NCBI GenBank assembly: GCA_964419825.1
Contig: CAYQRS010000001.1
Location: forward strand, 1-29,098
DNA length: 29,098 nt
Direction: 5' to 3'
DNA from: an uncultured Eubacteriales bacterium
GTDB taxonomy: Bacteria > Bacillota > Clostridia > Oscillospirales > Acutalibacteraceae
Shown here: piece after piece, positions 23,214-28,926 of the stretch
Layout of the letters: every line of letters starts with the position of its first letter
Numbering within the stretch: position 1 is the stretch's first letter
The notes under the pieces: model-generated
The model's database searches: none
The model's input: the letters and a program-made list of their open reading frames with translations, nothing else
What the model was told of the DNA's origin: nothing
Translations under genes and position numbers: made by a program

Positions 23214-24713
23214 ATGGCTAAAGAATATTTTTGTGCGCCGAACGGCAAATTCAGCACCAAGCGCACGATGCTCACAGGCTTCGGCTTCATGGCAAGCTCG
23301 ATCGCTTGGGCAATTTACGACCCCTATATCACAAAAATCCTCAACACTTTGCTTTCGGCTTCTCAGAGCATCAATAATCTGAGTGCAAGGCTGAACGAGG
23401 CATTCCCCGTTTTGGCTGAATTTGCAAAGAGTCAGGGTGAGGATGTTTCCCTCGCAGGCGGCGGAATTACTCTTGTTCCGCTGTTCATCGGTATTATTAT
23501 GACCTTTGATAACATCTTCGGTGTTATCTTCCAGCCCACCTTCGGCAAGCTTTCCGACCATTGCCATTCAAAGCTCGGCAAACGCCGCCCGTTCATCGTT
23601 TTCGGTGCGCCCGTTGCCGCAATCCTTTTTGCGATTATTCCGCTTGTTGCGCTGAATGTCGGCTCGCTTCCGCTGACGATGCTTTGCATCATCCTCTTTG
23701 TTTTCACAATGTCGCTGTGGCGTGCACCCGTTGTTGCGCTTATGCCCGATTTGACTCCGCCCGAAATGCGTAGCCAGGGCAATGCAATCATCAACCTTAT
23801 GGGCGGCGTGGGCAGTATGCTCGGTCTTGTCGCAGGTACGGTTGTAACCCTTATTATGGGCCTGGTTCTCGGCACTAAGGATTTCCCCGAAACGCAAACA
23901 TATCCTTATGTTTTCCTCGTCGGCTCAATCGTTATGATCATCGGTATGCTTGTCATCCTCACCAAGGTCAAAGAGCCCGACAGCCGTATTGCCGTTAAAG
24001 CGGAAATGAATATGGCTCAGGATGCCGCTGCCAAAAAAGCCGCCGCAAAGGCAGCCAAAAAGCAGGAAAAAGCCGCCCGCCGAGCCGAAAAGCTTTCAAA
24101 GGCGGAACGCAAGAGCCTTATCTTTATGCTCTGCGGCTTGTTCTTCCTCTTCTGCGGCACAAACGCAATTTCAACATTCTTTGCCCTGTTCGCTTCCGAG
24201 GTTCTCGGCAAAACAGCAGGCGAAGCTACGATTATGATGGCTGTTTTCGCAGTTTGCTCGGCAGCCGCCGCAATCCCTGCAGGTAAAATCGGCACAAAAA
24301 TCGGCCGTAAAAAGACAATCCTTATCGGTCTTGTCGTGTTTATGGTTGTGTTCCTGTTCTATGTCCTCACTCAGAGCCTCGCCGTTATCTGGCTTGCTCT
24401 CATCCTCGGCGGTGCTGCAAATATGTTCATCACCGTTAACACACTGCCCCTCGTTCTCGAAATCGGCGGTCAGGATAAGGTTGGCACATTCACAGGCTAT
24501 TACTACACAGCAACATTCTCGGCTCAGATCGCTTCTCCCATCCTTTACGGTATTGTCCGTATGTTCTCGGGCTCATATATGTCGCTGTTCTACTATTCAC
24601 CGATTGCTTTTGCAATCTCAATCCTCTGCATCCTCTTTGTTAAGCACGGTGAGGCAGATACCTCTTGGGTAAACGATGCCGCTAAAAAAGCCCGTGAAGA
24701 AAACGAGGATTGA
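23214..24713 (+). CDS. MFS transporter (GPH/maltose-sucrose-like)
   Basis: 499 aa, about 12 TM; FQPTFGKLSD..HSKLGKRRPF, ALMPDLTP and GKIGTKIGRKKT. Confidence 0.88.
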   Translation: MAKEYFCAPNGKFSTKRTMLTGFGFMASSIAWAIYDPYITKILNTLLSASQSINNLSARLNEAFPVLAEFAKSQGEDVSLAGGGITLVPLFIGIIMTFDNIFGVIFQPTFGKLSDHCHSKLGKRRPFIVFGAPVAAILFAIIPLVALNVGSLPLTMLCIILFVFTMSLWRAPVVALMPDLTPPEMRSQGNAIINLMGGVGSMLGLVAGTVVTLIMGLVLGTKDFPETQTYPYVFLVGSIVMIIGMLVILTKVKEPDSRIAVKAEMNMAQDAAAKKAAAKAAKKQEKAARRAEKLSKAERKSLIFMLCGLFFLFCGTNAISTFFALFASEVLGKTAGEATIMMAVFAVCSAAAAIPAGKIGTKIGRKKTILIGLVVFMVVFLFYVLTQSLAVIWLALILGGAANMFITVNTLPLVLEIGGQDKVGTFTGYYYTATFSAQIASPILYGIVRMFSGSYMSLFYYSPIAFAISILCILFVKHGEADTSWVNDAAKKAREENED

Positions 24714-24739
24714 TTAAATTCTCATTAAGGAATTCCGCA

Positions 24740-25717
24740 ATGAAAAGGTTTGTTTCAATTTTAACATTAGCTTCCCTGTGCGTAACCGCTTTTAGCGGTT
24801 GCGCTGTTTTTGCAGGGAGCAAAACTGCGCTCAAGGTCGGCGAAGCCGAGGTTGACAGCCGTGTTTTCGCCTATTTCTATGATGAAGCTTACGGCGAAGC
24901 CGAGGCTGACGGTGGTGATACCGATGATGAGCAGGCATTGAAGCAAGCGGCAACGAAAAAATGCTATGAATATGTTATCGCAACCACGACCTTCCAAAAG
25001 CTCAGCCTTTCGCTCGATGTCAATGAGAAAAAGGCTGTTGCCGACGAAACTGAGGAGCAATGGCATCTTTACGGCGACTATTACACCGAAATCGGAGTAA
25101 ACAAGCAGACTGTTGCAAAAATCAACCTTGCCGATGCTTATCGGACAAGCCTTTTGCTCTATTATTTCGGCAAGGGCAGTGAATACGAAGTGCCCGAAAG
25201 CGAAATTGAATATTATTTTGACCAAACCTATGTTGCTTTCCGTGCAATCAACGGCTACCTCACAACCACCGATGAAAACGGCGATACCGTTGCCATCAGT
25301 GCGGAGGAGGAGAAAGCCCTGCGTGCCGATTTTGAAGCGAAGCGTGATAGACTTGCCGAAGGCAGCGGCTTTGCCGATGTAAACGGCGGCACGGAGGTTG
25401 ACATCAACTTCGTTCAGGTCAGCAGCTCCGCTTACCCCAAGGATTTCCTTGCGCAGGTCGAAAAGCTCGAATACGATAAGCCTGCCTTGATCGAAACCGA
25501 GGAAAACATCTTCCTCGTTGTCAGGGCGGATGCCAAAAAAGGCGAGGATAACTTCTATGCGGATTATCGCACAAGATATATTGATGCCCTCCGTGGTGAG
25601 ATGCTGACGGATATGCTTGTTGCAACCGCAGAGGATTATGAGCTTGAAGCCAATTCAAGGGTTGAGGGCAAGGCGGCAAAAACAGTTATAAACGCCAGAA
25701 ATTCAAGAAATAATTGA
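24740..25717 (+). CDS. Lipoprotein, PrsA/SurA-N foldase-like
   Basis: ATG 24740; lipobox FSGC; LKVGEAEV...FAYFY start and helical chaperone-like body; PPIase domain appears reduced. Confidence 0.55.
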   Translation: MKRFVSILTLASLCVTAFSGCAVFAGSKTALKVGEAEVDSRVFAYFYDEAYGEAEADGGDTDDEQALKQAATKKCYEYVIATTTFQKLSLSLDVNEKKAVADETEEQWHLYGDYYTEIGVNKQTVAKINLADAYRTSLLLYYFGKGSEYEVPESEIEYYFDQTYVAFRAINGYLTTTDENGDTVAISAEEEKALRADFEAKRDRLAEGSGFADVNGGTEVDINFVQVSSSAYPKDFLAQVEKLEYDKPALIETEENIFLVVRADAKKGEDNFYADYRTRYIDALRGEMLTDMLVATAEDYELEANSRVEGKAAKTVINARNSRNN

Positions 25718-25726
25718 ATTTATCTA

Positions 25727-25755
25727 TTGACAAGGCTTGACTGCTGTGATAAGAT
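25727..25755 (+). promoter_or_regulatory. sigma70 promoter of the mini-protein-srtB-lcp locus
   Basis: TTGACA (25727-25732), N17 ending in TGA, TAAGAT (25750-25755). Confidence 0.75.
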
Positions 25756-25822
25756 GTTTTCGTATCTTATAAATGTAAGTGTAACTAATTTCAAATGCTT
25801 TTGAAAGGTTTGGTGTTTAATT

Positions 25823-26119
25823 ATGAAAAAATTAGCTTCAATTCTTGTAGCTGGTCTTATGATTTCAATGGTGTCGATGGTTGCATTCGCTGCTCCCAGC
25901 CCCACCGCTCCCACAATTTCCCCTGCTACTACCGATGCAAGCAGCAACGAAAAAGACACAACTGTCGAAGCTCCCGTTTCATCCGATAAGAACCCCTCAT
26001 CACCCGCAACAGGCTCAATTTCCGCTTCAATGAGCAAAACTGTTGTTGCTTCTGCGGCTGTTATCGTAACTCTTGCAGCAGCGGGCGTTTACACAAGCAA
26101 GAAAAAGAACGAAGAATAA
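25823..26119 (+). CDS. Very small S/T/P-rich cell-wall-anchored protein (sortase substrate)
   Basis: 98 aa; signal peptide ending AFA-A; SPATG at aa 60-64 (nt 26000-26014), then a hydrophobic helix and KKK tail. Confidence 0.8.
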   Translation: MKKLASILVAGLMISMVSMVAFAAPSPTAPTISPATTDASSNEKDTTVEAPVSSDKNPSSPATGSISASMSKTVVASAAVIVTLAAAGVYTSKKKNEE

Positions 26120-26141
26120 TTCTTCGCCGAATAATGCTTTT

Positions 26142-26175
26142 AAAGCCCCGATGTTCTTTTGAACTTGGGGCTTTT
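26142..26175 (+). terminator. Terminator-like hairpin between the mini-protein gene and srtB
   Basis: AAAGCCCC..GTTC/GAAC..GGGGCTTT followed by T residues. Confidence 0.65.
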
Positions 26176-26197
26176 CTGTTACAGAAAGGGAAGGACT

Positions 26198-27052
26198 ATG
26201 GAAAACAAAGAAAACCTTGCTTTGCAGCCGCAGGGCGGCGAACAGAGCGTGAAAAAGAAAGCTAACAGAGCAACCGTGATTTCGCTTGTGATTATCGTTG
26301 TGACGATTGTGTTCTGCCTTGGCTATATCGGCGTTGTCATTTGGCAAAACACCTCTGCCGAGCGCAGTTACGATAAGCTCAACGAGGTTATCAACAATGT
26401 TGATGAGGATAACGGCGGTGAGGAGGAACAGCCTGTTGACGAATCGGCAGTCGGTTCAAGCCCCGTTGATTTGCCTGCTCTTACCGAAATCAACAGCGAT
26501 GTTTACGCTTGGATAAGAATTCCCGGCACTTATGTCGATTATCCGATTGCACAAAGCACGGTTGAGGATAACTATTATCTCCACCGCTCAATCTACAAGC
26601 GCTATCTTTTTGCAGGTATGATTTACAGCCAGTCTGTCAATAAAACCGATTTTTCTGACCCCGTAACGGTTATTTACGGTCACAATATGCGCAACAAGAC
26701 GATGTTCGGCTCGCTCCATTCCTTTGAGGATAAGGACTTTTTTGAGCAGCACGATGCTTTCTATATTTATACGAAGGACCGTGTTTTGACCTATAAAATC
26801 GTTTCCGCTTACAAATACGATAACCGCCACATTATGAACGCTTTTGATTTTACGGACAGCGAAACGCTTGAAAATTATCAGAATTATGTTCTCAACCCGA
26901 TTTCAACGCTCCGCAACGTGCGTGAGGGTGTCAGCTTGACTGAGGATAGCAAGCTTGTCGTTTTAAGCACCTGTATGGGTAACGATAAGAAATCGAGATT
27001 TTTGGTGAACGGAGTGTTGGTCAGCGATGTTGCGATTGAACAAGAGCAGTGA
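26198..27052 (+). CDS. srtB: Class B sortase
   Basis: ATG 26198 after GGAAGG; N-terminal TM; AWIRIPGT.VDYPI, YGHNM (His), LSTC (Cys) and SRFLV (Arg). Confidence 0.92.
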   Translation: MENKENLALQPQGGEQSVKKKANRATVISLVIIVVTIVFCLGYIGVVIWQNTSAERSYDKLNEVINNVDEDNGGEEEQPVDESAVGSSPVDLPALTEINSDVYAWIRIPGTYVDYPIAQSTVEDNYYLHRSIYKRYLFAGMIYSQSVNKTDFSDPVTVIYGHNMRNKTMFGSLHSFEDKDFFEQHDAFYIYTKDRVLTYKIVSAYKYDNRHIMNAFDFTDSETLENYQNYVLNPISTLRNVREGVSLTEDSKLVVLSTCMGNDKKSRFLVNGVLVSDVAIEQEQ

Positions 27053-28079
27053 TGAGGCTTCGGCTGTGAACAGCTCAAAAGGCAAAAAAGCTTTGCTGAT
27101 TGTGGCGGCTGTGCTGTTTTTGATTGTTGCAGGCGGCGCAAGCACCGTGCTTATCTTACAGCAACGGGGCAAGGAAATGGCTTCGTTTGACGATGCCGAA
27201 ATCATTGCCGCAGAGGATGCTGTTGCCGAGGATGACGGCAAAACCGTGCAATACAACGGCAAAACCTACCGCCTTAACGAAAATGTCGCTTCGGTTGCCT
27301 GCCTCGGCGTTGACAAAACAAGCTTGGGTACGGTGTCGAACAAAATCGGCACGGGCGGTCAGGCTGATACAAATATGGTTCTCGCAATCGATACTGCAAG
27401 CGGCAAGGTCACGGTCATCGCAATCCCCCGTGACACGATGGTCGATGTCGATGTTTATACGGTTGTCGGCGAATACACAGGCTGTAAAAACGAACAGCTT
27501 TGCCTTGCTTACGCCTATGGCGATGGCAAGCACATAAGCTGTGAAAACGCCGTGCGCTCAATCGAGCGTGTGCTTTTCGGTATGCCTGTCAATTCCTATG
27601 TTTCGATTGATATGGACGGAGTTGCCGCCTTGAATGACGCTGTCGGCGGCGTTAAGGTTACCTCGCCCGAAACGATAGATAGCTTCACCGCAGGCAAAAC
27701 AATAACCCTTTACGGCAAAAATGCCCTCGAATTTGTTAAAGCCCGTGGCGATGATACCAACGCAAGCTCACGCCGCCTTGAACGCCAAAAGCTTTACATA
27801 AAAGCCTTTGCTCAAAAAGCGGTCAGCGCCGCAAAAAAGGATTTCGGCACGGTCACAAGGCTTTATAACACCGCATCAAAATATTGCTGTACGAATGTCG
27901 GCTTGAGCCGAGTGACTTATCTCGCATCGTCCTTGCTCTCCAAGGGCGTGAATGATTTGGATATCGTTTCTATCCCTGGCGAGATGAAAATGGGCGAAAA
28001 ATACAGCGAGTTTTATATTGACACTGCCGCAACATACGAGCTTATACTCGATGTTTATTACACCGAAGTAACCGAATAA
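27027..28079 (+). CDS. LCP (LytR-CpsA-Psr) family glycopolymer transferase
   Basis: N-terminal TM; GQADT, IPRDT, AYAYG, VDAVGG-like LNDAVGGV, FVKAR and RLERQ; overlaps the end of srtB. Confidence 0.92.
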   Translation: MLRLNKSSDEASAVNSSKGKKALLIVAAVLFLIVAGGASTVLILQQRGKEMASFDDAEIIAAEDAVAEDDGKTVQYNGKTYRLNENVASVACLGVDKTSLGTVSNKIGTGGQADTNMVLAIDTASGKVTVIAIPRDTMVDVDVYTVVGEYTGCKNEQLCLAYAYGDGKHISCENAVRSIERVLFGMPVNSYVSIDMDGVAALNDAVGGVKVTSPETIDSFTAGKTITLYGKNALEFVKARGDDTNASSRRLERQKLYIKAFAQKAVSAAKKDFGTVTRLYNTASKYCCTNVGLSRVTYLASSLLSKGVNDLDIVSIPGEMKMGEKYSEFYIDTAATYELILDVYYTEVTE

Positions 28080-28082
28080 AAC

Positions 28083-28157
28083 AAAAAAGTCAACTGCGTT
28101 TGAGCCGCTTAAATAATTCAGAGTGGCTCGCATCTTGCGGTTGACTTTTAATTTTTT
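28083..28157 (+). terminator. Long imperfect hairpin terminator after the LCP gene
   Basis: AAAAGTCAACTGC/GCGGTTGACTTTT outer stem and GAGCCGCT/AGTGGCTC inner stem, followed by T-runs. Confidence 0.65.
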
Positions 28158-28168
28158 CAAGCTATAAT
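28141..28168 (+). promoter_or_regulatory. sigma70 promoter of the downstream lipoprotein gene
   Basis: TTGACT (28141-28146), N16, TATAAT (28163-28168); AAAGGAG RBS before ATG 28192. Confidence 0.6.
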
Positions 28169-28191: not shown

Positions 28192-28926
28192 ATGAAAACA
28201 AAAATTCTTGCGTTAGTTGTCTGCTTGGCAATGATGCTCTGCGCCTGCTTCTTTAGTCCGAGTGAATCGGTGAACACAGTTGAGGTTAACGGCGGCAAGA
28301 GCTTCGCTTCTGCGCTTGAAAACAAAGCCAATTTCGAGTTCAAAATCGAAAAAGACGGTTTGTACAGCATTTTCTGCGGCGGCAAAAACCTCGATGAGGA
28401 TGGCTGCACCTTTAGTATTATAAGCAAGGCTGATGGAAGCGTTGTTGCGGAAAATGTTATGATCCACCGCACGGAATGGCTCTCACGCAACCTTTTCCTC
28501 AAAAGCGGCGAATATGCTCTCAATCTCACCTGCGCTGACGATGTTACGCAGGCTGAATGTGAAATCAAAACCGCAAAGGGATATGAAAACGCCAAATGGC
28601 TCACTGCCGATGCAATCGGCGATGAAGCGATGAGCCTGCCGCTCAATGTTGCATCCTTCGGTGAGGAGATTAGCTTCAAAATTCAGCTCGACGGCTCAAT
28701 GGAAAAAATCCACGCCGAATTTGACGGCATTAACACTTACTACGATAGCTGTGATGCTTTTCAAGTGAAAATGCTCGATTCGCAGGGCAAAACGGTATAT
28801 GATGAATATGTCGATTACGGCGGCTGTATGATTGATGCTCGGGAATTCAGCGGCGAATATACCCTTGTTCTCACGCCCGATTCCTCAAATTCCACCGCAA
28901 GCATTGCGTTTGCCGAAAAAGCTTAA
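28192..28926 (+). CDS. Hypothetical lipoprotein with beta-rich extracellular domains
   Basis: 244 aa; MKTKILALVVCLAMMLCAC lipoprotein-type signal; own RBS and terminator. Confidence 0.7.
   Translation: MKTKILALVVCLAMMLCACFFSPSESVNTVEVNGGKSFASALENKANFEFKIEKDGLYSIFCGGKNLDEDGCTFSIISKADGSVVAENVMIHRTEWLSRNLFLKSGEYALNLTCADDVTQAECEIKTAKGYENAKWLTADAIGDEAMSLPLNVASFGEEISFKIQLDGSMEKIHAEFDGINTYYDSCDAFQVKMLDSQGKTVYDEYVDYGGCMIDAREFSGEYTLVLTPDSSNSTASIAFAEKA

What the first reader, a model, noticed from the sequence alone, without database searches (positions are those of the whole stretch)
25727..28157. Mini sortase substrate + SrtB + LCP: candidate peptide-scaffolded surface glycan system
Seen: a 98-aa precursor whose mature form (aa 24-63, between the signal peptide and SPAT|G) is only 40 aa, with 15 Ser/Thr and 7 Pro and no room for a folded domain. 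It is followed by a class B sortase and an overlapping LCP gene. Established: Clostridial SrtB recognises (S/P)PxTG; LCP enzymes transfer glycopolymers from lipid carriers; in Actinomyces oris LcpA glycosylates the sortase-anchored protein GspA. Inference: a dedicated three-gene system in which LCP loads glycan onto a tiny hydroxyl-rich peptide that SrtB ligates to peptidoglycan. I know of no description of this in Clostridia.
Basis: partly seen in the sequence, partly recalled or inferred. Interest (0 to 1): 0.78.

Follow-up and report, generated by a model that had tools for sequence, protein, structure and literature searches.

The report
Sortase-anchored mini carrier for surface glycan
A gut Clostridia bacterium has a conserved three-gene unit (a tiny wall-anchored peptide, its own sortase and a variant glycan-transferase) that probably ties a surface sugar polymer to the cell wall through the peptide, which would explain why a related gut bacterium needs a sortase to display its capsule.

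Summary
A promoter (25727-25755) drives a 98-aa precursor made of a signal peptide, a 40-aa Ser/Thr/Pro stalk, SPATG, a membrane helix and a KKK tail. A conserved hairpin follows, then a class B sortase and an overlapping LCP gene.

The trio is conserved:
- 18 of 19 assessable orthologous sortase loci in Acutalibacteraceae have the LCP next door, and most have an upstream xPxTG substrate.
- In Lachnospiraceae the same three genes recur in shuffled order.
- Sortase-linked LCPs form one clade in which the first catalytic-site Arg is replaced by Gln.
- 27 of 33 linked substrates carry Ser-Pro just after the signal peptide, against about 5% background.
- The folded domain was lost in three separate places on the LCP tree, leaving 18-80-aa stalks.

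A 2026 paper shows that the homologous Mediterraneibacter gnavus srtB4 and its neighbouring LCP are both required for capsule display, without giving a mechanism.

Best reading (about 0.5): the LCP loads a lipid-linked glycan onto the carrier peptide and SrtB ligates the peptide to peptidoglycan, as in Actinomyces oris LcpA-GspA-SrtA. Glycan attachment is untested. This is a new variant of a known kind. The scan noted similar substrate-LCP pairings in other genomes.

The parts
25727..25755 (+). Sigma-70-type promoter of the unit (TTGACA, 17 nt, TAAGAT, with TG before the -10 hexamer)
   Evidence: 10 of 12 consensus matches. No gene separates it from the small ORF.
25823..26119 (+). Gene for the 98-aa carrier precursor, the mini sortase substrate (coordinates include the stop codon)
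   Evidence: Orthologues with the same signal peptide and sorting signal lie upstream of srtB in L037 and L039-L044.
25823..25891 (+). Signal peptide (aa 1-23, ending AFA)
   Evidence: Read from the sequence. Aligned with relatives.
25892..25918 (+). Mature N-terminus APSPTAPTI, carrying the conserved Ser-Pro motif (Ser26-Pro27); candidate glycan acceptor or recognition site
   Evidence: Ser26 and Pro27 are invariant in alignment A2. SP lies 2-8 aa after the cleavage site in 27 of 33 cassette substrates, against 5.4% of 429 signal-peptide-like ORFs of the own genome.
26000..26014 (+). SPATG sorting motif (aa 60-64); cleavage expected between Thr63 and Gly64
   Evidence: It fits the (S/P)PxTG motif of Clostridial SrtB cited in PMC13121745 (ref. 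30 there). P61, T63 and G64 are invariant in A2.
26039..26116 (+). Hydrophobic membrane segment (aa 73-90) and positively charged tail (KKKNEE) of the sorting signal
26142..26174 (+). G+C-rich hairpin followed by a U-rich tract between the carrier gene and srtB; likely a partial terminator that sets carrier expression above enzyme expression
   Evidence: -30 kcal/mol, z = -4.9. An equivalent AAAGCCCCG...CGGGGCUUU hairpin sits at the same place in seven relatives.
26198..27052 (+). Class B sortase (284 aa): N-terminal membrane helix at aa 25-49, then His162, Cys259 and Arg267
   Evidence: TIGR03064 at 164.9 bits, above cut-off. Best solved relative is C. difficile SrtB 5gyj, E = 1e-24, with the GHN, STC and R motifs aligned. 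Residue positions.
27027..28079 (+). LCP-family transferase (350 aa) of the sortase-linked clade: membrane helix at aa 22-44, Gln112 in place of the first conserved Arg, with Arg135-Asp136, Arg240 and Arg250/Arg253 retained
   Evidence: PF03816 at 92 bits. Clade membership at 98/88 support. Motif table; positions.

Best explanation
The three genes form an accessory module that fixes a lipid-linked glycopolymer, most likely a capsule-type polysaccharide made elsewhere in the genome, to the cell wall through a small dedicated carrier protein. The proposed steps are as follows. (1) The carrier is exported and its signal peptide removed. It stays in the membrane, held by its C-terminal helix. (2) The Gln-variant LCP transfers the glycan, or glycan-1-phosphate, from undecaprenyl-pyrophosphate onto a hydroxyl of the carrier. 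The conserved Ser-Pro at the mature N-terminus is the leading candidate site, and the Ser/Thr-rich stalk is the alternative. (3) SrtB cleaves SPAT|G and ligates Thr63 to the peptidoglycan stem peptide. The hairpin after the carrier gene keeps the carrier in excess over the two enzymes. What is shown here: the gene anatomy, the conserved linkage, the clade-specific LCP signature, the N-terminal motif, the accessory distribution, and homology to the M. gnavus srtB4-LCP pair, which is genetically required for capsule display. What is inferred: that the glycan is attached to the carrier rather than to MurNAc, the attachment site, and the order of the steps.
For: Linkage. 18 of 19 assessable SrtB orthologue loci (E <= 1e-50) in the family have the LCP adjacent, and 17 of 21 have a sorting-signal protein directly upstream. 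Seven of the eight closest relatives keep the whole trio, and the eighth locus is cut at the contig end before the carrier. In Lachnospiraceae the same three genes occur in different orders: lcp-srt-sub, lcp-sub-srt, srt-sub with a convergent lcp, and srt-lcp-vanZ-sub.

LCP clade. All 33 sortase-linked LCPs fall in one clade (98/88), apart from every other LCP paralogue of six genomes. Thirty of the 33 carry G-Q-[AS]-D where the other paralogues and solved LCPs have R-x-D.

Accessory sortase. The cassette sortase was found in 23 of 150 family genomes. The genome's other sortase type was found in 120 of 150.

Substrate family. Cassette substrates share an N-terminal SP motif that the genome's other three sortase substrates lack. 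Their sorting motif co-varies with the enzyme clade: SPVTS, APETN, SPESG and APETS are all in one LCP subclade.

Loss of the folded domain. The InlB-B-repeat-like domain was lost in three separate places on the LCP tree, leaving unstructured mature peptides of 40, 34 and 18 aa. That argues for a covalent adaptor rather than a binding or scaffold protein.

Genetics in a relative. In M. gnavus, a non-polar srtB4 deletion and disruption of the adjacent LCP each abolish capsule display (PMC13121745). That locus, recovered as L093, holds an SPQTG protein with its own promoter, and its LCP falls in the same clade as the window's.

Precedent and donors. A. oris LcpA glycosylates the sortase substrate GspA, and its beta3 Arg128 is dispensable for this (PMC6381275). 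Donor pathways exist in the own genome: three Bac_transf phosphoglycosyl transferases and CpsB/Wzz/CpsD genes.
Against: No experiment anywhere shows a glycan on a Clostridial sortase substrate. The M. gnavus paper does not report a phenotype for its RGna_12050 mutant in the text. No glycan synthesis genes lie in the window, and the flanks in close relatives are unrelated genes (MATE, GlgB). The SP motif is missing in 6 of 33 substrates, including the M. gnavus protein, which has APST. Some substrates have no Ser/Thr-rich linker (L107). The equivalence of the Gln position to A. oris Arg128 was not checked by alignment. Relatives are not independent samples, and the linked LCP group was collected by homology to the window's LCP.
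Confidence: 0.5

Rival explanations
1. The module is functional but the link is not covalent. The LCP attaches the polysaccharide to MurNAc as canonical LCPs do. The sortase-anchored protein is a separate component that primes, positions or retains the polymer or the LCP, so both enzymes are needed for display although no glycan sits on the peptide.
For: All characterised LCPs outside Actinomyces transfer to peptidoglycan (PMC7831098). The window's LCP keeps most catalytic residues. The larger substrates have a folded InlB-B-repeat-like domain that could bind something. The M. gnavus data fit this reading equally well.
Against: A binding or positioning role is hard to reconcile with substrates reduced to unstructured peptides of 18-40 aa in three lineages. 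It also fits poorly with the only widely conserved features being the N-terminal Ser-Pro and the sorting signal. The clade-wide Arg-to-Gln change suggests a chemistry or acceptor that differs from the peptidoglycan-directed paralogues kept in the same genomes.
Confidence: 0.3
2. Ordinary co-location with no specific coupling. SrtB is a general sortase for all xPxTG proteins of the cell, the LCP is one of four wall-polymer ligases, and the small protein is an unmodified Ser/Thr/Pro-rich wall spacer.
For: Three other xPxTG proteins are encoded elsewhere in the genome without a sortase of their own. The window contains no glycan genes.
Against: Linkage is kept across two orders despite gene-order shuffling. 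The LCP clade is tied to the sortase. The cassette sortase is patchy (23 of 150), while another sortase is near-universal and is the better housekeeping candidate. Sorting motif and enzymes co-vary. In M. gnavus, only srtB4 among the six sortase genes disrupted affects capsule.
Confidence: 0.1
3. The sortase polymerises the mini protein head to tail, with the alpha-amine of the conserved mature N-terminus acting as nucleophile. This would give a mucin-like peptide fibre on the wall, and the LCP would act on a separate target.
For: Some class B sortases are pilin polymerases; the third-best solved relative is the S. pyogenes exported protein 3psq. The mature N-terminus is conserved. Two minimal substrates have no Lys, so only an N-terminal amine could serve as nucleophile.
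Against: I know of no natural precedent for head-to-tail sortase polymers. There is no pilin motif, no tip or base pilin genes and no folded pilin domain. It leaves the constant LCP partner unexplained.
Confidence: 0.05

Closest known systems
Actinomyces oris LcpA-GspA-SrtA pathway (Wu et al. 2014; Siegel et al. 2019, PMC6381275)
   Same: An LCP gene is genetically linked to the gene of a sortase-anchored protein. The LCP, with phosphotransferase activity, glycosylates that protein while it is membrane-held, and a sortase then anchors it to peptidoglycan. The beta3 Arg is dispensable there and is absent here.
   Different: A different phylum. There the sortase is the housekeeping SrtA, not a dedicated class B enzyme inside the operon. 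GspA is a full-size protein, whereas here the carrier is a 40-aa stalk. The actinobacterial LcpA disulfide was not examined here. The LCPs here form their own clade with Gln at the first Arg position. Homology between GspA and these carriers was not tested.
Mediterraneibacter gnavus srtB4 capsule cluster, RGna_12030-12060 (Nat Commun 2026, PMC13121745)
   Same: SrtB4 is 36% identical to the window's sortase (E about 1e-53). The adjacent LCP falls in the same clade and has the same Gln signature. An SPQTG protein of about 200 aa lies in the cluster. Both enzymes are required for capsule display.
   Different: There the module sits among Wzz, VanZ, CpsB and CpsD genes next to glycosyltransferases, the gene order is srt-lcp-vanZ-substrate, and the substrate has a folded part and APST rather than SP at its N-terminus. 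In the window the module stands alone and the substrate is minimal. The paper proposes no role for the substrate and no mechanism for the sortase requirement.
Clostridioides difficile SrtB and its (S/P)PxTG substrates
   Same: The closest solved sortase (5gyj and 4ux7, E about 1e-24), with the same type of sorting motif.
   Different: From my own knowledge, C. difficile SrtB is the cell's single sortase with several enzyme and adhesin substrates. It is not described as paired with an LCP and a carrier peptide.
Canonical LCP ligases (B. subtilis TagT/U/V, S. pneumoniae Cps2A, S. aureus LcpA-C)
   Same: The same domain family (PF03816), a membrane anchor, and the PRD and RxxRQ motifs. These are the nearest solved relatives.
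   Different: They transfer to MurNAc of peptidoglycan and keep the first Arg. Paralogues of that type coexist in the same genomes as the sortase-linked clade.

Membership tests
Class B sortase | Match to the curated class B sortase equivalog model above its cut-off | tested here: met
   TIGR03064 at 164.9 bits against a cut-off of 153.75. PF04203 at 48 bits against 26.6.
Class B sortase | Catalytic His-Cys-Arg triad and an N-terminal membrane anchor | tested here: met
   GH162N, STC259 and R267 align to the same motifs in C. difficile SrtB 5gyj. The helix is at aa 25-49.
Class B sortase | Cleaves its cognate motif (here SPATG) and transfers the product to peptidoglycan | not testable with these tools
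   Needs a peptide cleavage assay.
Sortase substrate (cell wall sorting signal) | N-terminal signal peptide, then a pentapeptide motif, a hydrophobic segment and a positively charged tail at the C-terminus | tested here: met
   Sequence. The signal is conserved in orthologues. No Pfam or NCBIfam model matches the 98-aa protein.
LCP (LytR-CpsA-Psr) transferase | LCP domain above the Pfam and NCBIfam cut-offs, with a membrane anchor | tested here: met
   PF03816 at 92 bits against 24.6, and TIGR00350 at 82.7 against 62.3. The helix is at aa 22-44.
LCP (LytR-CpsA-Psr) transferase | Full set of conserved pyrophosphate-binding Arg residues | tested here: not met
   The first Arg (R-x-D-T motif) is Gln112. 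Arg135 (PRD), Arg240 and Arg250/253 are present. The change is shared by 30 of 33 sortase-linked LCPs (Met in two, Asn in one), so it marks a subfamily and is not decay.
A. oris-type LCP protein glycosylation pathway | LCP gene genetically linked to a sortase-substrate gene | tested here: met
   Same operon here. Conserved linkage.
A. oris-type LCP protein glycosylation pathway | LCP-dependent glycosylation of the substrate | not testable with these tools
   Needs Western blotting, glycan staining or mass spectrometry with and without the LCP.
A. oris-type LCP protein glycosylation pathway | Sequence homology of the substrate to GspA and of the enzyme to actinobacterial LcpA (including its Cys179-Cys365 disulfide) | not tested
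   No A. oris sequences were retrieved. A. oris LcpA was not among the PDB matches at E <= 1e-5.
M. gnavus srtB4 capsule module | Orthologous SrtB and LCP adjacent, with an SPxTG protein in the cluster | tested here: met
M. gnavus srtB4 capsule module | Embedded among CpsB/CpsC(Wzz)/CpsD and glycosyltransferase genes | tested here: not met
   None of these lie in the window. CpsB/Wzz/CpsD homologues are on contigs C270 and C78. CpsB/C/D do flank the cassette in L046, L106, L111 and L032.

The most novel reading that the evidence does not exclude
In many gut Clostridia (Oscillospirales and Lachnospirales) a capsule or wall polysaccharide is not joined directly to MurNAc. Instead a distinct Gln-variant LCP clade phospho-links it to a conserved N-terminal Ser-Pro site of a dedicated carrier protein, which a private class B sortase then ligates to peptidoglycan. 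The 18-40-aa carriers, such as the one in this window, are the minimal natural form of such a peptide-tethered capsule.
Probability: 0.4. Interest if true: 0.82.

Novelty: new variant of a known kind. Interest (0 to 1): 0.7.

Why it matters
A 2021 review still calls LCP-mediated glycosylation of a sortase substrate unique to Actinomyces oris (PMC7831098).

This module would extend that principle to abundant gut Firmicutes, with its own enzyme clade, its own sortase and a recognisable carrier family.

It also gives a concrete, testable answer to an open result of 2026: why M. gnavus needs a sortase to display the capsule that governs its gut colonisation and inflammatory potential. The answer can be tested with the genetic tools that paper introduced.

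The minimal carriers define which parts of the substrate are needed, namely the N-terminal Ser-Pro, the stalk and the sorting signal. That makes attachment-site mapping simple and could provide a small natural tag for displaying glycans on Gram-positive walls.

Tried and rejected
- **Expression evidence.** Neither run search returned a run labelled RNA. One small run of unknown kind holds a single 162-nt contig (26032-26193) covering the 3' end of the carrier gene and the hairpin. This is uninformative.
- **Second mini-substrate/LCP pair.** In the own genome, a 76-aa TPDTG protein lies upstream of a weak LCP-like gene (C10). No such small gene is conserved upstream of the orthologous LCP-like gene in three relatives, so it was dropped as support.
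- **Supplement of the M. gnavus paper.** I looked for the list of candidate sortase targets (Supplementary Fig. 4b) and for the RGna_12050 mutant phenotype. Neither is in the held text.
- **Pfam and NCBIfam on the mini protein and the two flanking lipoproteins.** No matches.
- **Housekeeping-sortase reading.** Weighed and largely rejected from the distribution.
- **Automatic signal-peptidase site rule.** The rule mis-placed the site in four proteins, including the window's. The SP-motif count of 27 of 33 therefore comes from reading the sequences, not from that script's 21 of 30.
- **Not attempted.** Structure prediction (the carrier is disordered and no complex prediction is available), and alignment with A. 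oris LcpA/GspA (sequences not retrieved).
Full report
**What is there.** The window is one whole contig of a 1.75-Mb MAG in 304 contigs, 95% complete. The closest public relatives are Acutalibacteraceae/Clostridia MAGs; those with a named source come from sheep and goat gut. At 25727-25755 lies a promoter-like site, TTGACA-17-TAAGAT with a TG extension.

The ORF at 25823-26119 encodes 98 aa. It has a signal peptide ending AFA and a 40-aa mature segment, APSPTAPTISPATTDASSNEKDTTVEAPVSSDKNPSSPAT, with 15 Ser/Thr, 7 Pro and no aromatic residues. The SPATG motif, a hydrophobic segment and a KKKNEE tail follow.

A strong hairpin at 26142-26174 (-30 kcal/mol, z = -4.9) with a U-rich tail comes next.

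The following gene is a class B sortase: TIGR03064 above cut-off, with His162/Cys259/Arg267 aligned to C. difficile SrtB 5gyj. I place its start at the ATG at 26198.

The LCP gene (27027-28079, PF03816) overlaps the sortase gene by 26 nt. A separate promoter at 28141-28168 precedes the next gene, so the unit is three genes.

**Is the small gene real and is the trio conserved?** Seven of the eight nearest relatives (65-72% sortase identity) keep the same order: carrier, hairpin, srtB, overlapping lcp. The eighth locus (L038) begins at the contig end just upstream of srtB, so its carrier cannot be assessed. Their carriers are 125-150 aa precursors whose mature part is a 69-80-aa Thr/Pro/Ala-rich, mucin-like stalk. 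The signal peptide, the first mature residues (A-x-SP-V/T-AP-T-I) and the sorting signal are conserved, while the stalk varies freely in length.

Across 150 genomes, one per genus, of the family, 23 have a clear orthologue of this sortase at E <= 1e-43. Of the 21 best loci, 19 can be assessed for a downstream gene, and 18 of those have the LCP next to the sortase. Seventeen have a sorting-signal protein immediately upstream.

Most of those substrates are 150-250 aa. Six of 20 match the divergent InlB B-repeat domain.

Outside the family, the best sortase homologues in a class-wide sample again sit beside an LCP and an xPxTG protein of about 200 aa, but in different orders and orientations. Linkage that survives rearrangement is the classical sign of a functional unit.

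**The enzymes are a special pair.** The own genome has two sortases and four LCPs.

The other sortase (contig C56) carries a long acidic cytoplasmic extension. It has homologues in 120 of 150 family genomes. It is therefore the better housekeeping candidate, and the cassette sortase is accessory.

In a tree of 33 sortase-linked LCPs and all 15 other LCP paralogues of six genomes, the linked ones form a single clade with support 98/88.

Thirty of the 33 have G-Q-[AS]-D where nine of the ten assessable other paralogues, and the solved Listeria LCPs, have R-x-D. In the window this residue is Gln112. The PRD arginine, the helix arginine and the RxxRQ motif are kept. This points to a subfamily with an altered pyrophosphate site, not a decayed enzyme.

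In A. oris LcpA, the arginine in strand beta3 (R128) is the one catalytic-site arginine that can be mutated without losing GspA glycosylation (PMC6381275). I infer that this is the same position, but I did not align the two proteins.

**The substrates are a family too.** Reading the 33 cassette substrates, 27 have Ser-Pro 2-8 residues after the signal-peptidase site, for example AFA|APSP, AFA|AESP, ASA|KKSP, AMA|AGSP and AFA|AKSP.

A crude scan of 429 signal-peptide-like ORFs of the own genome finds SP in that position in 5.4%. The genome's three other sortase substrates lack it.

The pentapeptide also tracks the enzyme tree. The LCP subclade L015/L019/L023/L024/L045 goes with SPVTS, APETN, SPESG and APETS instead of xPxTG; no substrate was found for L045.

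The folded domain has been lost in three separate places on the LCP tree: the window's group (40-80 aa mature), L021 (34 aa) and L030 (18 aa, TNVSPQNPDNPNPPSPPT). Only the N-terminal SP, a hydrophilic spacer and the sorting signal survive in every case. An 18-40-aa unstructured peptide buried in a Gram-positive wall can hardly bind or display anything by itself. It makes sense as a covalent adaptor.

**Link to experiment.** A 2026 paper on Mediterraneibacter gnavus (PMC13121745) reports that six of the eight sortase genes were disrupted and only srtB4 (RGna_12035) was needed for capsule display. A non-polar deletion and complementation confirmed this. Disruption of the adjacent LCP (RGna_12040) gave the same phenotype. 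The discussion gives no mechanism for the sortase requirement.

I recovered the locus from human-gut metagenome contigs using a primer printed in the paper's supplement. It reads Wzz, srtB4, LCP, VanZ-like, an SPQTG protein of about 200 aa, CpsB, CpsD. By locus-tag arithmetic and the paper's stated functions, the SPQTG protein is RGna_12050. That gene has its own promoter. A mutant of it appears in the strain table, but no phenotype is given in the text.

The M. gnavus sortase is 36% identical to the window's. Its LCP lies inside the sortase-linked clade and has the Gln signature.

CpsB/C/D homologues also flank the cassette in L046, L106, L111 and L032. They exist elsewhere in the own genome, together with three Bac_transf initiating transferases.

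**Interpretation.** The most economical model is the Actinomyces oris one (PMC6381275): an LCP puts a lipid-linked glycan on a membrane-held sortase substrate, and the sortase then fixes the conjugate to peptidoglycan. In Clostridia this would use a private class B sortase, a separate LCP clade and a recognisable carrier family.

I put this at about 0.5. The weaker claim, that the three genes are one functional module for glycopolymer display, I put at about 0.8.

The main rival (0.3) keeps the module but has the LCP act on MurNAc as usual, with the anchored protein in a non-covalent helper role. The minimal carriers argue against it but do not exclude it. Plain co-location (0.1) and sortase-driven head-to-tail polymerisation (0.05) are less likely.

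**Comparison and novelty.** The principle is known from one actinobacterium, and a 2021 review calls it unique (PMC7831098). The gene pair srtB4-LCP is now known to be needed for capsule in one Lachnospiraceae species.

What I did not find described in the papers I searched:
- the conserved three-part cassette across two orders;
- the Gln-type LCP clade;
- the N-terminal Ser-Pro carrier motif;
- the natural minimal carriers.

I class it as a new variant of a known kind. Two earlier notes of this scan describe similar substrate-LCP pairings on other genomes. I did not test them.

**Limits.**
- Everything about the glycan is inferred.
- Relatives are not independent, and the linked LCP set was gathered by homology.
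- Signal-peptidase sites were judged by eye.
- The MAG is fragmented.
- No expression data could be obtained.

Noticed in passing
Own genome contig C56:3304-4110 (locus L002:28-2154): The second sortase of the genome is a 708-aa protein. It has an acidic, repeat-rich cytoplasmic N-terminal region of about 430 aa (EEPVAEE repeats, poly-Asp), one membrane helix and a C-terminal class-B-like sortase domain. Homologues of the catalytic part occur in 120 of 150 family genomes, often in open frames of 800-1200 aa.
   Followed up: partly
Own genome contig C10:7667-7897 (locus L006:2177-2407, minus strand): A 76-aa protein with two hydrophobic segments flanking TPDTG lies directly upstream of a weak LCP-like gene (282 aa, PF03816 at 47.6 bits). 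It could be a second mini-substrate/LCP pair, but no such small gene was seen upstream of the orthologous LCP-like genes in three relatives.
   Followed up: partly
window 24710-25717: A 335-aa predicted lipoprotein with no Pfam or NCBIfam family. It is conserved (48-56% identity) upstream of the cassette in seven of the close relatives, where a MATE transporter gene separates it from the carrier gene.
   Followed up: no
window 28192-28926: A 244-aa predicted lipoprotein with its own strong promoter (28141-28168, 11 of 12 matches) and no family match. It was not found next to the cassette in relatives.
   Followed up: no
L021:867-2280 and L046:2866-4849: Two cassette-type SrtB genes lie in tandem in front of the LCP in one Acutalibacteraceae genome (G022) and in an Acetatifactor MAG.
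   Followed up: no
L093:10498-11097 (M. gnavus-type metagenome contig): The SPQTG protein of the srtB4 capsule cluster is RGna_12050 by locus-tag order. It has its own promoter, and a disruptant appears in the paper's strain table. No phenotype for it appears in the main text of PMC13121745.
   Followed up: partly
Own genome (whole): No match to PF00953 (the MraY/WecA family) was found, although the MAG is rated 95% complete. This is probably an assembly gap, because MraY is essential.
   Followed up: no
window 26032-26193: A small public run of unknown type holds only a 162-nt contig covering the 3' end of the carrier gene and the hairpin, ending just before the srtB start. It could be a stable 3' transcript fragment or a coincidence.
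   Followed up: partly
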